From NCBI GenBank assembly GCA_964427515.1, contig CAYRUX010000096.1, positions 1-56,513 on the forward strand: a stretch of 56,513 nt of DNA, given 5' to 3'. Position numbers and translations under genes: made by a program. This document shows, in pieces, positions 18,389-51,129 of the stretch (within the stretch, counting starts at the first letter, position 1; the number at the start of each line of letters is the position of its first letter). The notes beneath the pieces are model-generated. The model had not been told where the DNA came from. It worked only from the letters and a program-made list of their open reading frames with translations, and did not search any database. The stretch is from an uncultured Rhizobiaceae bacterium (lineage in GTDB: Bacteria > Pseudomonadota > Alphaproteobacteria > UBA828).

Positions 18389-19543
18389 TCAAACCACTTC
18401 GTTAGTTACTGATGCATTGAATAAAGTAGAGCGACCCAAGTAGGATCTCTTTATTTTAATACTTTCTGACCGCAGTTGGCCACAGGCAGCTAATATGTCA
18501 CGTCCTCGTGGTGTTCGAACCGGTGAAGAATAACCGGCCGAATTAATTATCTCAGAAAATTTCTTAATTCTTTCCGGTGTTGAGCACTCATAACCAGCGT
18601 TTGGCCAAGTATTAAAAGGAATGAGATTTACCTTAGATGGAATACCTGCAATTAACCGAACCAAAGATTTCGCATCGGCATTCGTATCATTAATCCCTTT
18701 AAGCATAACATACTCAAAGGTAATGCGCCTAGCGTTAGAGGATCGCGGGTATTGTCTACACGCCTCAATCAACTCCTCAAGCGGATATTTTCGATTAATG
18801 GGCATTAACTTATCTCGCAATTCATTAGTTGTTGCATGTAAGGAAATTGCTAAATTTACCCCCAATTCCTTACCACAACGCTCAATAAAAGGCACCACGC
18901 CCGCCGTGGAAAGAGTATTCTTTCTCCTGGAAATAGAAAACCCTTCCGGATCCATAGCAATTTGAATTGCCTTGTTAACATTTTCATAATTGAATAGTGG
19001 CTCGCCCATTCCCATCATAACAATATTAGAAATGAGCCTCACATTTTTTTCTGCTGGCCAATCTTTACAAACATCCTTAGCTATCAAAAACTGTGAAACT
19101 ATTTCGCGGGCGCTCAAATTTCTAACTAACCTCTGTGTACCAGTATGGCAAAAACCACATGTTAATGTGCATCCTACTTGGGAAGACATGCATATCGCTC
19201 CCCGATCTTTCTCTGGAATAAACACGCTTTCGGCCTCTTGACCATCATCAAATCTGATCAACCATTTAAATGTACCATCTTCGGAAATTTGTTCGTTTAA
19301 GATCTCAGGTCTCTTCAGTGAATAATGTGTAGCCAGCGCGTCTTGTAGAGGAACATTCAATGTCGACATTTTAGAAAAGTCTGTAACACCATGATGGTAT
19401 ACCCAATGCCATAATTGCTTAGCGCGTAACTTGGAGCTCTTTGCAGACTCACCTAATCCTTGAAAAATAGTCGCCAATTCAGAGCGATCCATACCTATCA
19501 GGTTTTGAGTTTCTTTTGGTTTTTTATTAACGGTATTGGTCAT
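18389..19543 (-). CDS. rlmN: 23S rRNA/tRNA adenine-C2 methyltransferase, radical SAM
   Basis: CxxxCxxC cluster motif (GCTLTCGFCHTG), MGMGEPL, and the C-terminal catalytic Cys region (AACGQL). The ATG at 19543 or the TTG at 19564 are both possible starts. Confidence 0.9.
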   Translation of the reverse strand: MTNTVNKKPKETQNLIGMDRSELATIFQGLGESAKSSKLRAKQLWHWVYHHGVTDFSKMSTLNVPLQDALATHYSLKRPEILNEQISEDGTFKWLIRFDDGQEAESVFIPEKDRGAICMSSQVGCTLTCGFCHTGTQRLVRNLSAREIVSQFLIAKDVCKDWPAEKNVRLISNIVMMGMGEPLFNYENVNKAIQIAMDPEGFSISRRKNTLSTAGVVPFIERCGKELGVNLAISLHATTNELRDKLMPINRKYPLEELIEACRQYPRSSNARRITFEYVMLKGINDTNADAKSLVRLIAGIPSKVNLIPFNTWPNAGYECSTPERIKKFSEIINSAGYSSPVRTPRGRDILAACGQLRSESIKIKRSYLGRSTLFNASVTNEVV

Positions 19544-21058: not shown

Positions 21059-22597
21059 TTGAACGCTCCTAATTTTGATCATAAGTTAGCAAAGGTTATG
21101 TCTTTAGATATTTCACCCACAACAATACTTGATAAATCTGCGCTGCAAGCAAATCTTCGTAAAGCTACTTCACCTGTTACTCACAATAACAATCGAGGCG
21201 ACGCTTTAGCAATATATAAAAAATTTCTAACTAAAGGGCGACTAACACTCCAGCGTTCTATGAATGAAGGGGCTTCAGGTGCATCGCTTGTCTTGGGTTA
21301 CTCTTTTCTTGTAGATGAAATTCTACAAACAATATGTAATCAGGCTTCTCTAGTATTATATACTGAACCCAACCCTACTGTAGGCGCAAAACTGACTCTT
21401 GTAGCCACAGGTGGTTACGGAAGAGCTGAACTTGCCCCTTGGTCCGACATTGATCTTTTGTTTCTCCATCCCTGGAAGTTAACGGCGAGAAATGAACAGG
21501 TCGTGGAATATGTTCTATATACTCTATGGGATTTAGGGCTTAAAGTTGGTCACGCAACTCGATCAGTAACAGACTGTCTATCACGTGCTAAGAAGGATAT
21601 CACCATACGTACCTCTTTACTGGAATCTCGTTTCCTTTGGGGGCACCAAGGTCTGTATAAAGATTTTAGTCTTCGATTTTGGAACGAAGTTGTTACTGGA
21701 ACTGAATCTCTGTTTGTTAGTTCAAAATTGGCTGAGAGGGATGCGCGTCATCATCGCACAGGAGATTCCAGATACCTTTTGGAACCAAATATAAAGGATG
21801 GTAAAGGCGGTTTGCGTGACCTACATACGTTATTTTGGATTGCAAAGTATCTTTATAACGTCGATCAATTTTCTGATTTAGTTGGATTAGGACTTATAAG
21901 CCCTAGAGAACAGACCAAGTTTTCAAACGCTGAGAATTTCCTCTGGAAGGTCAGAGCACATTTACACATTTTGAGTGGAAGACCTGAGGATAGGTTGTCA
22001 TTTGATGTACAACCAGAAATTGCCTGCCACATAGGCTATGCTGATCGTAACGGTAATTTAGCTGTTGAAAGATTCATGAAACATTACTTTTTAATTGCTA
22101 AATCGGTAGGTGAATTGACACGCGTATTATGTGCTTCTCTTGAAGCAGACAGTATTGAAGTTGCCCCCCGTCGAGTTGGCGCATTTGGCCCGTCTCCTAC
22201 AATAGACTGTATTAAAACAGACAAGGGGAGGCTCGCTGTAGTTCACGACCTAGCTTTTGACGAAAAACCTGCCCGTCTATTAAGATTATTTAGGCTCGCT
22301 CAAACTTCTGGTTTAGATATTCATCCTCGGACACTTCGTTTAGTGCATCAGTGCTTACGTCTAATCAACCAAAATTTACGAGACAACGTTGAAGCTAACG
22401 AGATATTTTTTCAGATTTTAACTTATCATCAGGAACCCGACATAACACTCCGTCAAATGAGTGAATCTGGGGTTCTCGGCCGTTTTATTCCGGAGTTCGG
22501 TCAAATTATTGGTCAAGTCCAATTTGATATGTATCATGTTTACACCGTTGATAAACACACGATTCAAGCTATTAGTATATTGTCTCAAATAGAATGA
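21059..22597 (+). CDS. glnD: glnD N-terminal fragment (nucleotidyltransferase half)
   Basis: GGYGRAELAPWSDIDLLFL NTase motif. Ends ...YTVDKHTIQAISILSQIE-TGA. Start is TTG 21059 or ATG 21098. Confidence 0.85.
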   Translation: MNAPNFDHKLAKVMSLDISPTTILDKSALQANLRKATSPVTHNNNRGDALAIYKKFLTKGRLTLQRSMNEGASGASLVLGYSFLVDEILQTICNQASLVLYTEPNPTVGAKLTLVATGGYGRAELAPWSDIDLLFLHPWKLTARNEQVVEYVLYTLWDLGLKVGHATRSVTDCLSRAKKDITIRTSLLESRFLWGHQGLYKDFSLRFWNEVVTGTESLFVSSKLAERDARHHRTGDSRYLLEPNIKDGKGGLRDLHTLFWIAKYLYNVDQFSDLVGLGLISPREQTKFSNAENFLWKVRAHLHILSGRPEDRLSFDVQPEIACHIGYADRNGNLAVERFMKHYFLIAKSVGELTRVLCASLEADSIEVAPRRVGAFGPSPTIDCIKTDKGRLAVVHDLAFDEKPARLLRLFRLAQTSGLDIHPRTLRLVHQCLRLINQNLRDNVEANEIFFQILTYHQEPDITLRQMSESGVLGRFIPEFGQIIGQVQFDMYHVYTVDKHTIQAISILSQIE

Positions 22598-45386: not shown

Positions 45387-45809
45387 ATGTCAGGCGACAA
45401 TCAAACTAATAGTGGTAGGGTATTTGGTCGGCGCAAAGGTCATAAACTTAGAACCAAACAAAAAATCCTAATGGAAGACTTATTACCTCGTTTAAAAATC
45501 GATCTAGAAATATTTGAAGAAACGATTGAGCCGCATAGCTTTTTTGCATGCAATATCAAGGAAGTATGGTTAGAAATTGGATTCGGCGCTGGAGAACATA
45601 CTGCTTGGCAAGCAAAACAAAACCCAAATGTAGGTTTTATTGCTTGTGAACCGTTCCTTAACGGAGTAGCCAGCTTACTAAAACACATTTCGACCGACAA
45701 TTTGTGCAATATTCGTATTTTTACCGATGATGCGCTTCCACTAATAAGGCGTTTACCTGAAGGTACAATTAACCGACTTTTTATACTTTTTCCTGATCCT
45801 TGGCCTTAA
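45387..45809 (+). CDS. trmB: trmB N-terminal fragment (SAM-binding half)
   Basis: FGRRKGHKLR N-terminal box, EIGFGAGEH SAM motif; ends FPDPWP-TAA. Confidence 0.85.
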   Translation: MSGDNQTNSGRVFGRRKGHKLRTKQKILMEDLLPRLKIDLEIFEETIEPHSFFACNIKEVWLEIGFGAGEHTAWQAKQNPNVGFIACEPFLNGVASLLKHISTDNLCNIRIFTDDALPLIRRLPEGTINRLFILFPDPWP

Positions 45810-45821
45810 TCTCGCCATAAG

Positions 45822-46133
45822 ATGAGACGCATTATTACGAATGAAATCGTGACATGTTTTGCTAATATTTTGGCAGACAATGGCGAACTTCGGTTTTCAA
45901 CAGATCATTTAGAGTACGCAAGGTGGGCACTACTGATCATGTTGAAACATCAATGGTTCTATTGGACAGCTGAAAAATCTAGCGATTGGCATAATCGCCC
46001 CGTGGACTGGCCACTAACAAGATACGAAGATAAAGCAGTTAAAGACAGTAAAAAGCCCATATTTTTGCAATTTAAACGCGTTCCTCGTAAAGTTAAAAAC
46101 AGTAAATTATTGAAAAAAATAGAAATTACTTGA
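45822..46133 (+). CDS. trmB: trmB C-terminal fragment
   Basis: Same frame as the N-terminal fragment. The open frame begins at 45810 (SRHK) and the first ATG is at 45822. ELRFSTDHLEYARW and TRYEDKA match the TrmB C-terminal half. Confidence 0.75.
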   Translation: MRRIITNEIVTCFANILADNGELRFSTDHLEYARWALLIMLKHQWFYWTAEKSSDWHNRPVDWPLTRYEDKAVKDSKKPIFLQFKRVPRKVKNSKLLKKIEIT

Positions 46134-46759: not shown

Positions 46760-48130
46760 ATGGAAACGGAAACAATTGGTCTTGCTCGATTAGAACTTCT
46801 CCAAGTTGCCGACGCAGTTGCGCGTGAAAAAAGCATTGAACGTGATCTAGTTTTAGAAGCTATGGAGCAAGCTATTACTCATGCAGGAAAACGTAAATAT
46901 GGCCAGGAACACGATATTCGAACAGAAATAGATAGAAGTACTGGAGAGATTCGACTTATGCGTTACTTGGAGGTAGTTGATCCAATAGAAAATAGTGCCA
47001 CTCAAATCAGCATTTCGGAGGCTCAAGAACGTAACCCAGCTGCGCAAGTAGGAGATTATCTTGCTGACGCTCTACCTCCTATAGATTTTGGTAGGATTGC
47101 TGCCCAAACCGCAAAACAAGTGATAGTACAAAAAGTTCGTGAAGCAGAGCGCGCTCGACAATATGAAGAATATAAGGATCGAGTAGGTGAAATTGCAAGT
47201 GGCCTAGTAAAGAGGGCAGATTTTGGTGGCGTTACAGTTGATCTTGGCCGAGGTGAAGGCGTTATTCGACGAGAGGATTTGCTGCCACGCGAATCTTTCC
47301 GTAACGGCGACAGGGTTCGAGGATACATATTTGACGTGAGGAGGGAGCAACGAGGGCCACAAATATTTATTTCCCGTACACACCCTAATTTTATGGCTAA
47401 ATTATTTTCTCAGGAAGTACCGGAAATATATGATGGAATTATAGAAATTAAGTCGGTAGCAAGAGATCCAGGAAGCCGAGCTAAAATTTCCGTATTTTCA
47501 AATGATACCAGTATAGACCCAGTGGGCGCTTGCGTAGGAATGCGCGGTTCACGCGTTCAAGCTGTGGTGGGAGAACTACAAGGTGAGAAAATTGATATTA
47601 TACAGTGGTCTCCAGATCCCGCAGCATCAATTGTAAATGCGTTAGCACCCGCCGAAGTATCTAAAGTAGTGCTTGATGAAGATGCCAAACGCATAGAAGT
47701 TGTTGTGCCTGATGAACAACTAAGTCTAGCTATCGGGCGTCGGGGGCAGAATGTACGTTTAGCTTCGCAACTATCTGGATGGGACATAGATATACTAACG
47801 GATGCTGAAGAGTCTGACCGTCGCCAAGAAGAAGTTCGTTCCAGAACTGAATTGTTTATGAATGCATTAGACGTTGATGATGTAATCGCGCATCTACTAG
47901 TTACAGAAGGGTTTGCAAGCATTGAAGAGGTGGCTTTCGTTGCTTCTGAAGAGCTCTCTTCAGTTGAGAGTTTCGATGAGGAAATAGCTGAGGAGCTAAT
48001 ACAACGAGCAGCAAGTTACGTAGAAAAGAAAAATATTGAACTCGCAAATACACGAGTAGAACTAGGGGGACAGGACGCTTTAGCATCCTTAGCTATATTA
48101 ACTCCAGGTGCACAGGTCGCCCTTGGGTAA
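46760..48130 (+). CDS. nusA: Transcription termination/antitermination factor NusA (as terminated by TAA 48128-48130; lacks the last 74 codons of the family-typical C-terminus)
   Basis: N-terminal domain, S1 (GDRVRGYIFDV), KH1/KH2 (GACVGMRGSRVQAV, AIGRRGQNVRLASQL) and the start of the acidic HhH region. Confidence 0.95.
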   Translation: METETIGLARLELLQVADAVAREKSIERDLVLEAMEQAITHAGKRKYGQEHDIRTEIDRSTGEIRLMRYLEVVDPIENSATQISISEAQERNPAAQVGDYLADALPPIDFGRIAAQTAKQVIVQKVREAERARQYEEYKDRVGEIASGLVKRADFGGVTVDLGRGEGVIRREDLLPRESFRNGDRVRGYIFDVRREQRGPQIFISRTHPNFMAKLFSQEVPEIYDGIIEIKSVARDPGSRAKISVFSNDTSIDPVGACVGMRGSRVQAVVGELQGEKIDIIQWSPDPAASIVNALAPAEVSKVVLDEDAKRIEVVVPDEQLSLAIGRRGQNVRLASQLSGWDIDILTDAEESDRRQEEVRSRTELFMNALDVDDVIAHLLVTEGFASIEEVAFVASEELSSVESFDEEIAEELIQRAASYVEKKNIELANTRVELGGQDALASLAILTPGAQVALG

Positions 48131-48355
48131 GCTGGAATCAAATCTCTCGATAACCTGGCTGATTTAGCTGGGGATGAATTAATGGAAATTTTGGGCGAGT
48201 TTATTCCAAATCTCGAAAAAGCTAATGAAATTATAATGTCAGCACGAGCTCATTGGTTTGAAGATGACAATTTGGAAACTGAAAAAATAGAACCAAATGA
48301 GCAACAGTCTGCAGAAAATGAAAATTCTGTTGATACTAGGGAGGATGCTCCGTGA
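48131..48355 (+). other. nusA: In-frame continuation of nusA beyond the TAA: 74 sense codons encoding a NusA C-terminal HhH/AR-like segment, ending at TGA 48353-48355
   Basis: Translates as AGIKSLDNLADLAGDELMEILGEFIPNLEKANEIIMSARAHWFEDDN.... The IIMSARAHWF segment resembles the conserved LIMAAR..WF end of NusA. It has no ATG yielding 60 aa or more, so it is absent from the ORF track. Confidence 0.7.
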
Positions 48356-48483
48356 GTAAGTTGAGCCACAACAAGGGAAGTATTTTACACACTGTTTGGC
48401 AAAGTTGTGCGAAATGAACCTAGTAAATTTGTAAACGTTAGATCTCTTCTCCACATAGTTAAATTGAATTGAGCAGGAATTAA

Positions 48484-51129
48484 ATGAGCGATAAGGACGA
48501 AAACGGTTCTCAAAAAGCCAAAAAACCTCTTTCCTTGAAATCACAGGGTGGTAGCAAGACTGGCAGAACAAGTGACACAGGTCAGGTTCGCCAAAGCTTT
48601 TCTCACGGTAGAAGCAGATCAGTAGCTGTGGAGGTTCGGAGAAAACGAAGTATAAAGGGGGGAGGGACGTCAGCACCAAGTTCAGCAAATATTAGTATTG
48701 ATGTTGATAATGCAATCACAGCAAAACTTGACCCAACTTCAACTCCCGATGCTAAGAAAAATAATGAAAATTTGACTAAGAATACTCCAAAATCTCGTGT
48801 TGTTCTCCGAACTTTGACGCAGGAAGAAAAAGCTACCCGAGCGAAGGCCGTAGAGGTTGCAGTTAAGGAAGAAGATAGGAAACGAAAAGAAGCTGAGAGT
48901 GAAGCGGCTCGTCTAAGAGAAGAAGAGGTCGTTCGGGCGGCTGAAAGAGCACTTGCAGAACGCCGCGCAGCAGAGGAAACATCTCGTCGGAAAGAAGAAG
49001 AAAGTAAAAGAAAAGAAGCCGAAGCTGAAGCAGCTCGACGGCTAGCGGAACCTGTGGAAACGAAGGAAACACAACCAACTACTGGTGCCAGCTCTAACCC
49101 CAAGAAAGTTGATGACGAAAGCTATTTGGAAGATGAAGATCTTCCCCGCAAAGGCAGGCGTAAATCAGATCAGCGCCGGGCTGTACTCGCCGGCAAGCGA
49201 GATCGTGACTCCAACCGTCGAAGTCGTAAACTTACCGTTTCTGCTGCTTTAGAAACTGAGGAGAATGAAGAACGTAGCAGGAGCTTGGCATCGCTAAAGC
49301 GTCAGCGTGAGCGGGAACGTCGTGCAACCGAAGATAACACCGGTGCTGAAGATGCAGCACCGGTTGTTCGGGAAGTTGTCGTACCAGAAACTATTACTGT
49401 GCAAGAACTAGCAAACCGGATGGCAATCCGTGGCATCGAAGTCGTTAAAAAACTATTGCAATTGGGTATTACAGCAAGCATGACTCAGGTGGTTGAGGGT
49501 GACACAGCTGAACTCGTCGTTCACGAGTTTGGGCATAAAGTAAAACGCGTCAGCGCTTCAGATGTTGAAATTGGCCTTGAGGGGGAAGCAGATGAACCTT
49601 CTACACTCATATCACGACCACCCATCGTAACAATTATGGGTCATGTGGACCACGGGAAAACTTCTTTATTAGATGTTTTGAGGACTACTGATATTGCGGC
49701 TGGAGAAATGGGAGGCATAACCCAGCATATAGGGGCGTATCAAGTTGAATTAGAAAATGGTTCAAGAATAACTTTTATCGACACACCTGGCCACGCAGCT
49801 TTTACCAAAATGCGTTCTCGAGGAGCAAAAATAACAGATATTGTAATTTTAGTGGTTGCAGCAGACGATGGTGTAATGCCTCAAACGATAGAAGCAATAA
49901 ATCACGCCCGCGCGGCCAAGGTACCTATAATTGTAGCTATCAACAAGATAGATCGTCCAGATGCTAAAGCTGACAAAGTTAGACAAGAGCTTTTACAACA
50001 CGAAGTTGTTACTGAAGAAATGGGGGGAGATGTATTATCTGTAGAAGTTTCAGCAGTGGAGAAGCTAAACTTGGACAGACTGGAAGAGGCCGTTATCCTC
50101 CAGGCTGAATTATTAGAGCTAAAAGCCAATCCTAATCGGTCTGCCGACGGTGTGGTAATCGAGTCTAGAATAGACAAGGGGCGGGGTGTTGTAGCCACAA
50201 TATTAGTTCAGCGTGGAACCTTAAACGTTGGCGATATAGTTGTTGCAGGCTCCGATTGGGGCAGAGTTAAAGCTATGATGGATGAACGCGGAAAACCGAG
50301 GAAAATTGCTACTCCATCATGCCCCGTGGAAGTACTAGGTCTCGGCACGCCACCGAATGCTGGTGACGATCTTGTTGTAGTACCAAATGAACGAAGAGCC
50401 AGAGAGATCAGCGAATTTCGCAGCACTCGTTTACAGGAAATTAGATCCGCCAAAAGCGCCGCTCCCATGAATGTAGAACAAATGTTTGCAAATACAGGAA
50501 AAGATGGATTGCAAATTTTACCGTTAGTAATCAAAACGGACGTCCATGGGTCGACTGAAGCATTAAAAATGGCTTTAGAAAATTTATCTAATGATGAAGT
50601 TTCAGTCCATATTCTCAACATTGGCGTCTTAGGAATTACTGAATCAGATGTAGTTTTAGCCCAAGCGTCTAATGCTCAAATTATTGGCTTCAATGTTCGT
50701 GCCAATCCTCATGCTCGAAGACTAGCTCAACAAGATGAAATAAATATATCTTACTATTCTATTATTTATGAGGTCGTTGATGCTACAAAAGGAATGTTAG
50801 AAGGTTTACTAAAACCCACCCTCAATGAGCAAGTTTTAGGGAATGCACAAATTCTACAAATCTTTAGTGTGGGCAAGGTAGGAAAAATAGCAGGTTGTCG
50901 CGTAACAGACGGCTTAGTAAAACGAGGGGCAAAAATGCGTCTATTGCGCGATGATATCGTAATCCATAACGGCTCTCTAAAAACATTAAGGCGTTTCAAA
51001 GATGATGTTCGGGAAGTAAAAGAAGGGTTTGAATGCGGAATGGCCTTTGAGAATTATTCTGATATTCGCGAAGGAGATTTATTAGAAATATATGAAGTTC
51101 AGGAAATTGCAAGATCTCTCGATTCTTAA
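48484..51129 (+). CDS. infB: Translation initiation factor IF-2
   Basis: Charged low-complexity N-terminal region, G domain ([21 protein letters not shown]) and C-terminal domains. 881 aa. Confidence 0.97.

What the first reader, a model, noticed from the sequence alone, without database searches (positions are those of the whole stretch)
48100..48355. In-frame TAA removes the last 74 codons (HhH/acidic-repeat end) of nusA
The frame reads ...LTPGAQVALG-TAA-AGIKSLDNLADLAGDELMEILGEF...EIIMSARAHWFEDD... and ends at TGA 48353-48355, which is 531 codons from the start and in phase. Homologs I recall read ...VALGE.GIKT(L/V)EDLA... across this point, so the stop plausibly replaces Glu (GAA to TAA). 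In E. coli the terminal acidic repeat (AR2) autoinhibits NusA RNA binding and contacts the RNA polymerase alpha C-terminal domain. A truncated protein would therefore be viable but altered in regulation. The conserved tail argues the stop is either very recent or bypassed. Once the tail is counted, only 128 nt remain before infB, which leaves no room for the ylxR/DUF448 gene often found between nusA and infB.
Basis: partly seen in the sequence, partly recalled or inferred. Interest (0 to 1): 0.6.

Follow-up and report, generated by a model that had tools for sequence, protein, structure and literature searches.

The report
nusA stop codon: probable assembly error
The stop codon that seems to cut off the end of the nusA gene occurs only in this draft metagenome assembly, inside a small cluster of error-like base changes, while every other assembly of the same bacterium has an intact gene, so it is most likely a sequencing or assembly artefact.

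Summary
nusA (46760-48355) carries an in-frame TAA at 48128-48130 where 18 of 19 relatives have Glu. The frame then runs 74 more codons through the second C-terminal repeat (AR2) to TGA.

The stop is private to this assembly, a 256-contig, 2.63-Mb MAG. Three independent contigs of the same species (99.6-100% identical, three other samples) read GAA or match the consensus bases in the part they cover. A 190-kb JGI contig encodes an intact 531-aa NusA, and a sister species an intact 532-aa NusA.

The TAA is the last of 8 private substitutions packed into 78 nt. All 8 are transversions, all change the protein, and 4 follow a G. The rest of the gene is otherwise identical. Similar private patches surround the TAA in trmB and lie in infB.

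All 6 in-frame stops of this MAG that I could check are intact in other assemblies. The error types (A>C, G>T, A>T) are the commonest Illumina miscalls.

Verdict: a base-calling or low-coverage assembly artefact (about 0.85), not a truncated or recoded NusA.

The absence of ylxR between nusA and infB is real and shared by the lineage.

The parts
46760..48355 (+). nusA, 531 codons plus TGA, interrupted in this assembly by one in-frame TAA
   Evidence: ORF list and translation. TIGR01953 NusA scores 442 bits and Pfam finds NusA_N, S1 and KH_5. Residues 10-503 align with full-length E. coli and Xanthomonas NusA structures.
48128..48130 (+). in-frame TAA at codon 457; GAA (Glu) in all other assemblies of the species and in the sister species
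   Evidence: Window T versus G at 48128 in L151 and L155. E457 in P0001 and P0122. GAA in L149.
48051..48128 (+). patch of 8 substitutions private to this assembly (48051 C, 48069 G, 48078 C, 48093 C, 48096 T, 48102 C, 48114 A, 48128 T; other assemblies read A, T, A, A, A, A, T, G)
   Evidence: L156 covers only the first three sites and differs from the window at those three and nowhere else in 2005 nt. Clustering P < 5e-7 by simulation; 8 of 8 transversions P about 8e-5.
47873..48019 (+). first C-terminal HhH repeat (AR1-like), codons 372-420, retained in the 456-aa ORF
   Evidence: TIGR01954 stretch at 372-420; Pfam HHH_5 at 372-417.
48080..48283 (+). second C-terminal repeat (AR2-like), about codons 441-508, split by the TAA
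   Evidence: The second TIGR01954 stretch appears only in the read-through protein. Alignment with relatives. dN/dS of 0.05-0.07 against the sister species.
48284..48352 (+). variable acidic C-terminal tail, codons 509-531
   Evidence: Alignment; dN/dS of 0.22 against the sister species.
48356..48483 (+). 128-nt nusA-infB spacer with no ylxR (DUF448) gene; the same short spacer occurs in conspecific and sister contigs
   Evidence: PF04296 gives no match in G000 and matches in 25 of 30 relatives, next to nusA wherever both were found.
45800..45847 (+). second private patch: 5 A-to-T changes (45800, 45806, 45807, 45823, 45847), including the in-frame TAA 45807-45809 of trmB
   Evidence: L151, L152 and L153 all read A at the five sites and are otherwise identical over 1.7-2.5 kb. 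Intact 248-aa TrmB P0124.
22595..22597 (+). in-frame TGA in glnD, also private to this assembly (CGA Arg elsewhere)
   Evidence: L163 and L164 read C at 22595. Intact 925/926-aa GlnD P0127, P0128 and P0129.
50602..50630 (+). private patch in infB (G>T x4, C>A x1) that changes AVHILHSGVGG to [11 protein letters not shown]
   Evidence: JGI, ENA and sister-species IF2 all agree against the window.
48914..48966 (+). private changes in infB: R144L (48914) and E156A (48950), plus a third-position difference at 48966 seen only against L151 and not attributable to either sequence

Best explanation
The TAA at 48128-48130 is a sequencing or assembly error in this draft MAG, not a property of the organism. 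The organism's nusA is an ordinary intact 531-codon gene with GAA (Glu) at codon 457. It encodes NTD, S1, two KH domains and two C-terminal HhH repeats (AR1 and AR2). Shown: the stop and seven neighbouring substitutions exist only in this assembly, they are packed into 78 nt, and comparable private patches with nonsense codons occur in other genes of the same MAG. Inferred: each patch is the imprint of one poor-quality read, or read pair, or damaged template, that became the consensus where coverage of this low-abundance marine alphaproteobacterium was very thin. The patches are shorter than one read, and their substitution types are those that Illumina base calling most often gets wrong.
For: (1) Independent assemblies of the same species read GAA or match the consensus: L151 (ENA ERZ23495408), L155 (ERZ23495243) and L156 (ERZ23495038, which covers only the first three patch sites). 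They are 99.6-100% identical to the window outside the patch. A JGI 190,782-nt contig encodes an intact 531-aa NusA, P0001, identical to the window's read-through at 522 of 531 residues; 8 of the 9 differences fall in codons 431-457.
(2) Sister species L149/L150 (84% nt identity, 42% GC) has GAA and an intact 532-aa NusA.
(3) The 8 private changes lie within 78 nt, P < 5e-7. All 8 are transversions, whereas natural differences to the sister species run 146 transitions to 65 transversions, P about 8e-5. All 8 are non-synonymous, and there is no change in the 74 codons downstream.
(4) The same signature occurs elsewhere in the MAG. The trmB TAA lies among 5 private A>T changes in 48 nt, against three independent contigs. 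infB has a private patch of G>T x4 and C>A that alters a conserved motif. A gene at the very edge of contig C74 has 9 private residue changes, including a stop, in 33 codons.
(5) All 6 in-frame stops of the MAG that could be checked are intact in other assemblies: nusA, trmB, glnD, the 730-aa gene on C255, metH on C50 and the 438-aa gene on C74.
(6) Of about 22 validated private substitutions, about 19 are A>C, G>T or A>T. Dohm et al. 2008 (PMC2532726) report these as the three commonest Illumina substitution errors in an AT-rich genome, concentrated at read ends and often after G. Four of the 8 nusA patch sites follow a G.
(7) AR2 is under purifying selection in this lineage: dN/dS is 0.05 for codons 458-508 between the species consensus and the sister species.
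(8) Other assemblies of this organism carry their own different defects. L151 has a 96-nt deletion in nusA and a split metK, and L163 has a patch in rlmN. This suggests thin and uneven coverage of this organism in these data sets.
Against: The other assemblies come from other samples, so a clone carrying the patch could in principle exist in the MAG's own sample. Seven of the 8 changes fall on codon position 2 (P about 0.003 under uniform phase), which errors should ignore; the preference of errors for positions after G, which is enriched at codon position 1, explains this only partly. The glnD stop is a lone C>T transition with no dense patch around it and looks more like an ordinary mutation than the others. 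The sequencing platform and assembler of the MAG are unknown.
Confidence: 0.85

Rival explanations
1. The TAA and its neighbouring substitutions are real in the strain sampled by this MAG. A very recent, localised burst of mutations, for example one error-prone repair-synthesis tract, truncated NusA after codon 456. The result would be a viable protein that lacks AR2 and hence its autoinhibition and its contact with the RNA polymerase alpha C-terminal domain.
For: The sequence as deposited carries the changes. Many bacteria live with NusA lacking both acidic repeats, as in the Thermotoga and Mycobacterium structures that end near residue 350, so the truncation need not be lethal. The untranslated tail is identical to intact alleles, which fits an extremely recent event. 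The bias to codon position 2 is odd for random errors.
Against: None of 4 other assemblies of the species shares any of the 8 changes. The all-transversion spectrum is unlike natural variation in this lineage. The MAG would need many such bursts, because about 8-11 of 205 orthologues carry internal stops, including hits to conserved motifs of essential IF2. One burst sits exactly at a contig end. All 6 checked stops are private to the MAG.
Confidence: 0.12
2. The TAA is decoded (programmed readthrough, a suppressor tRNA or a changed genetic code), so a full-length NusA is made from the sequence as written.
For: The downstream frame is open and conserved. trmB also has an in-frame TAA.
Against: Conspecific genomes have GAA at this site, AAA at the trmB site and CGA at the glnD TGA site, so there is no conserved recoding site and no single amino-acid meaning. 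No tRNA with anticodon UUA, CUA or UCA was found among 34 tRNAs. TAA terminates rimP one base before the nusA start.
Confidence: 0.01
3. NusA naturally ends here in this lineage, and the downstream 74 codons are a decaying remnant.
For: None beyond the deposited stop.
Against: No relative ends at this point, across 19 aligned relatives plus G027 and G030. Conspecific and sister genes are full length. Tail dN/dS is 0.05.
Confidence: 0.01

Closest known systems
Alphaproteobacterial / E. coli-type NusA with two C-terminal acidic HhH repeats (TIGR01953 + 2 x TIGR01954; PDB 5ms0, 6flq, 6j9e)
   Same: The read-through protein has the full architecture: NusA_N, S1, KH x2 and two C-terminal repeats. 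It aligns over residues 10-503 with full-length solved NusA. It is 87-90% identical to NusA of the nearest marine alphaproteobacterial MAGs.
   Different: In this assembly only, codon 457 reads TAA and seven residues just upstream differ from every other copy. The lineage's spacer to infB lacks ylxR.
Consensus errors in low-coverage short-read metagenome assemblies (Illumina substitution-error profile, Dohm et al. 2008, PMC2532726)
   Same: The changes are substitutions only, with no indels. They come in clusters shorter than a read and are dominated by A>C, G>T and A>T. They often follow G, and one cluster lies at a contig end.
   Different: This could not be confirmed at read level. The strong bias to codon position 2 in the nusA patch is not a known property of such errors.
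NusA naturally lacking AR1/AR2 (e.g. Thermotoga maritima 1hh2/1l2f, Mycobacterium tuberculosis 1k0r)
   Same: A 456-aa product would resemble these shorter NusA proteins in lacking a functional AR2.
   Different: Those proteins end after KH2. Here AR1 and a fragment of AR2 would remain, and the lineage's real gene is full length.

Membership tests
NusA (TIGR01953 equivalog domain) | N-terminal RNAP-binding domain, S1 and two KH domains scoring above the curated cut-off | tested here: met
   TIGR01953 scores 442 bits against a cut-off of 253. Pfam NusA_N scores 138 bits and KH_5 99 bits, with S1 also found.
NusA with C-terminal duplication (TIGR01954 x2, AR1 + AR2) | Two copies of the ~50-residue HhH repeat after KH2 | tested here: met
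   There are two stretches (74.6 bits) in the read-through protein and in intact conspecific P0001. Only one (53.9 bits) is found in the 456-aa ORF as deposited.
Genuine nonsense mutation / truncated allele | The stop is reproducible in independent sequence data of the same organism | tested here: not met
   GAA in L151 and L155, Glu in P0001 and P0122, and GAA in L149. The MAG's own reads could not be tested.
Genuine nonsense mutation / truncated allele | Surrounding sequence shows a natural mutation spectrum (mostly transitions and synonymous sites) | tested here: not met
   8 of 8 are transversions and 8 of 8 are non-synonymous, within 78 nt. The natural ts:tv ratio is 146:65, and 178 of 211 natural differences are at codon position 3.
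Stop-codon recoding / programmed readthrough | The stop is conserved at the site in close relatives | tested here: not met
   Conspecific and sister sequences have a sense codon there.
Stop-codon recoding / programmed readthrough | A suppressor tRNA or a reassigned code in the genome | tested here: not met
   ARAGORN found 34 tRNAs, none with anticodon UUA, CUA or UCA (the genome is 94% complete). TAA also ends rimP.
Sequencing/assembly artefact | The variant is private to one assembly and clustered within one read length | tested here: met
Sequencing/assembly artefact | Low coverage, and low base quality of the supporting reads at the site | not testable with these tools

The most novel reading that the evidence does not exclude
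The 78-nt patch is real. A single localised hypermutation event, an error-prone polymerase tract, in a natural clone of a low-GC pelagic alphaproteobacterium produced seven missense changes and a stop. That would remove NusA AR2 in a lineage that has already lost ylxR, and similar tracts would be scattered through the genome.
Probability: 0.07. Interest if true: 0.45.

Novelty: not a real feature. Interest (0 to 1): 0.08.

Why it matters
As biology it does not matter much: the organism almost certainly has a normal, full-length NusA.

As a quality flag it matters. This MAG carries patches of substitution errors that create in-frame stops in roughly 4-5% of the genes sampled, with no frameshifts. 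Nonsense codons, apparent pseudogenes, odd residues in conserved motifs and apparent recoding elsewhere in this genome should therefore be checked against other assemblies before they are interpreted. At least two other first-stage findings on this window, trmB and glnD, have the same explanation.

The real features nearby are of modest interest. The lineage has lost ylxR between nusA and infB. Its genome has fallen to about 41% GC, while its nearest relatives have 60-70% GC and a NusA that is 87-90% identical in amino acids.

Tried and rejected

Exact-pattern scan: a scan of metagenome contigs across the stop found nothing. In hindsight the pattern contained patch-specific bases. A tail-peptide scan returned only distant relatives, because near-identical records are withheld. 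P0001's 190-kb contig could not be fetched.

Genome-wide ORF-pair screen: a screen for stops using a codon-usage score was too noisy, since shadow ORFs passed the filter. It was replaced by tblastn of ORFs from 400 kb of the nearest genus against the MAG.

Genetic-code change or suppressor tRNA: rejected.

Diversity-generating retroelement: considered for the patch because most changes are at A. Rejected on the sequence pattern alone: 3 of 8 changes are not at A and the target is a housekeeping gene. A nearby reverse transcriptase was not searched for.

Recombination from a divergent allele: rejected because all 8 changes are non-synonymous transversions and match no relative.

Relaxed selection after a real stop: rejected because the untranslated 74 codons downstream carry no change, while the 26 translated codons upstream carry 7.

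Full report
The ORF that starts at ATG 46760 stops at TAA 48128-48130 after 456 codons. The same frame then runs 74 more sense codons to TGA 48353-48355, 531 codons in all. The protein is NusA:
- TIGR01953 scores 442 bits, and Pfam finds NusA_N, S1 and KH_5.
- Residues 10-503 of the intact conspecific NusA P0001, which differs from the window's read-through at 9 residues, align with full-length solved NusA of E. coli and Xanthomonas.
- The NusA C-terminal duplication model TIGR01954 matches twice in the read-through protein and once in the 456-aa ORF, so the stop would remove the second repeat, AR2.
- In an alignment with 19 relatives the stop column is Glu in 18 and Gln in 1, and the downstream block is conserved.
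- No relative ends there. The two relatives flagged with an internal TAA only have their natural stop.

**2. Context.** The window is the longest contig of a 2.63-Mb, 256-contig, 94%-complete assembly with 41% GC. Its nearest relatives are marine alphaproteobacterial MAGs, such as MarineAlpha10 and 'Rhodospirillaceae' bins. They have 60-70% GC, and their NusA is 87-90% identical. An earlier first-stage note listed two more in-frame stops in this window: TGA in glnD and TAA in trmB. That led me to ask whether the stops are a property of the organism or of the assembly.

**3. Other assemblies of the same species are intact.**
- The protein database holds a 531-aa NusA, P0001, from a 190,782-nt JGI contig. 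It sits in the same 90% cluster as the window's 456-aa ORF. It is identical to the window's read-through at 522 of 531 positions, and 8 of the 9 differences lie in codons 431-457.
- Contig L151 (ENA ERZ23495408) is 99.3-99.6% identical to the window over 11.5 kb. It reads the consensus bases at all eight patch sites, including G at 48128.
- L155 (ERZ23495243, 2.3 kb) differs from the window at exactly the same eight sites, plus two private ones.
- L156 (ERZ23495038, 2.0 kb) ends at 48090. It differs from the window only at the three patch sites it covers.
- L157 and L160 cover nusA upstream of the patch and are 100% identical to the window.
- A sister species (L149/L150, 84% nt identity, 42% GC) has GAA and an intact 532-aa NusA.

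**4. The patch.** The window-private bases are 48051 C, 48069 G, 48078 C, 48093 C, 48096 T, 48102 C, 48114 A and 48128 T. The consensus reads A, T, A, A, A, A, T and G.
- The changes are A>C x4, T>G, A>T, T>A and G>T. All eight are transversions and all change the protein: K431T, V437G, D440A, D445A, K446I, N448T, L452Q and E457stop.
- Eight of ten differences falling within 78 nt of a 2.3-kb comparison never occurred in 2 million simulations.
- Natural differences between this species and its sister run 146 transitions to 65 transversions, and 178 of 211 are at codon position 3. Eight transversions out of eight therefore has P of about 8e-5.
- The 74 codons after the stop, untranslated if the stop were real, carry no change, while the 26 translated codons before it carry seven. 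That is the opposite of what decay after a real truncation would give.
- Four of the eight sites follow a G.

**5. The same signature elsewhere in this MAG.**
- trmB: five private A>T changes in 48 nt (45800, 45806, 45807, 45823, 45847), against three independent contigs that are otherwise identical. One of the five makes the TAA. An intact 248-aa TrmB exists in JGI, ENA and Logan assemblies.
- glnD: T against C at 22595, checked in two contigs and three intact 925/926-aa proteins.
- infB: a private patch at 50602-50630 (G>T x4, C>A) turns AVHILHSGVGG into [11 protein letters not shown], against JGI, ENA and sister-species IF2. R144L and E156A are also private.
- Other contigs: tblastn of ORFs from 400 kb of the nearest genus found internal stops in about 8-11 of 205 orthologues, with no sign that one stop codon is special.
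- Three of those could be looked up, and all are intact elsewhere: a 730-aa gene on C255 (K284stop), metH on C50 (C498stop with Y499N next to it), and a 438-aa gene at the very edge of contig C74 (9 private residue changes including a stop in 33 codons).
- So 6 of 6 testable stops are private to the MAG.

**6. Spectrum.** Of about 22 validated private substitutions, about 19 are A>C, G>T or A>T, and one is a transition. Dohm et al. 2008 (PMC2532726) found exactly these three transversions to be the commonest Illumina substitution errors in an AT-rich bacterial genome. They were concentrated at read 3' ends and often followed G, and the authors attributed A/C and G/T confusion to shared lasers. 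Each patch is shorter than one read.

Other assemblies of this organism have their own, different defects. L151 has a 96-nt deletion in nusA and a split metK. L163 has a patch in rlmN, where the window agrees with the outgroup at four of the differing residues and L163 at two. This suggests coverage of this organism is thin and uneven in these data sets.

**7. Recoding is excluded.**
- The three stops in the window replace three different amino acids (Glu, Lys, Arg), and conspecifics have sense codons at each.
- No suppressor tRNA was found.
- TAA ends rimP one base before the nusA start.
- AR2 is under purifying selection in the lineage. dN/dS between the species consensus and the sister species is 0.05 for codons 458-508, 0.005 for the core and 0.22 for the acidic tail.

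**8. What is real nearby.** The 128-nt nusA-infB spacer without ylxR is shared by conspecific contig L151 (128 nt) and sister contig L149 (130 nt).
- tblastn with three relatives' YlxR proteins and a PF04296 search find nothing in the MAG.
- By contrast, 25 of 30 relatives have the gene, including every same-family genome in which nusA was found, and it lies directly after nusA.
It describes a lineage-level gene loss.

**9. Limits.** A real clone carrying the patch cannot be strictly excluded.
- The bias of 7 of 8 changes to codon position 2 is only partly explained by the tendency of errors to follow G.
- The glnD stop is a lone transition.
- I put the artefact at about 0.85, a real private allele at about 0.12, and recoding or a natural short NusA at about 0.01 each.

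Noticed in passing
window 45800-45847 (trmB): The in-frame TAA 45807-45809 of trmB is one of five A>T changes in 48 nt that are private to this assembly. Three independent contigs read A at all five sites and encode an intact 248-aa TrmB.
   Followed up: yes
window 22595-22597 (glnD): The in-frame TGA in glnD is also private to this assembly. Two ENA contigs read CGA, and JGI and ENA proteins of 925/926 aa are intact. Unlike the other stops it is a lone C>T transition. The nearby E486K difference (22553) is shared with one ENA contig and may be a real polymorphism.
   Followed up: yes
window 50602-50630 and 48914-48950 (infB): Private G>T and C>A changes alter six IF2 residues, including a conserved GVGG motif. 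All other copies, including the sister species, agree against the window.
   Followed up: yes
whole genome G000 (e.g. C255:11427, C50:2916, C74:28, C194:3982-4012, C226:4317-4323): About 8-11 of 205 orthologues compared with the nearest genus carry internal stops in this MAG. The three that could be looked up are intact in other assemblies. Multi-stop cases on C194 and C226 were not examined further.
   Followed up: partly
whole genome G000 versus relatives (L002-L048, G016 tiles): This lineage has 41-42% GC and a genome of about 2.6 Mb. Its nearest relatives have 60-70% GC and 3.3-5 Mb, with NusA 87-90% identical. That is a large, apparently rapid shift in base composition together with genome reduction, in a pelagic marine alphaproteobacterium.
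   Followed up: no
window 48356-48483: ylxR (DUF448, PF04296) is missing between nusA and infB, and was not found anywhere in the MAG. It is also missing from conspecific and sister contigs, but present directly after nusA in all same-family genomes where nusA was found.
   Followed up: yes
L151:6900-6911 (= window 47505-47610) and L151:4574: The ENA scaffold of the same species has its own defects. It carries an in-frame 96-nt deletion in nusA (called as 499 aa) that L155 and L157 do not share. A G>T change splits metK into 324 + 54 aa. It also has 1-nt and 13-nt gaps upstream, one of them in lnt.
   Followed up: partly
L158 versus window 46853-46938: One ENA contig differs from the window and from five other contigs by 11 changes in 86 nt of the nusA 5' part. 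These are mostly transitions, which looks like real strain variation or a recombination tract rather than error.
   Followed up: no
window 18777-18918 (rlmN, minus strand) versus L163: This is a cluster of 9 A/C and G/T-type differences. At four of the differing residues the window agrees with the outgroup and L163 is the odd one, at two it is the reverse, and four are unresolved. Error patches therefore also occur in the ENA assembly.
   Followed up: partly
G000, ARAGORN scan: A permuted (two-piece) tmRNA with tag ANDNEVALAA was detected.
   Followed up: no
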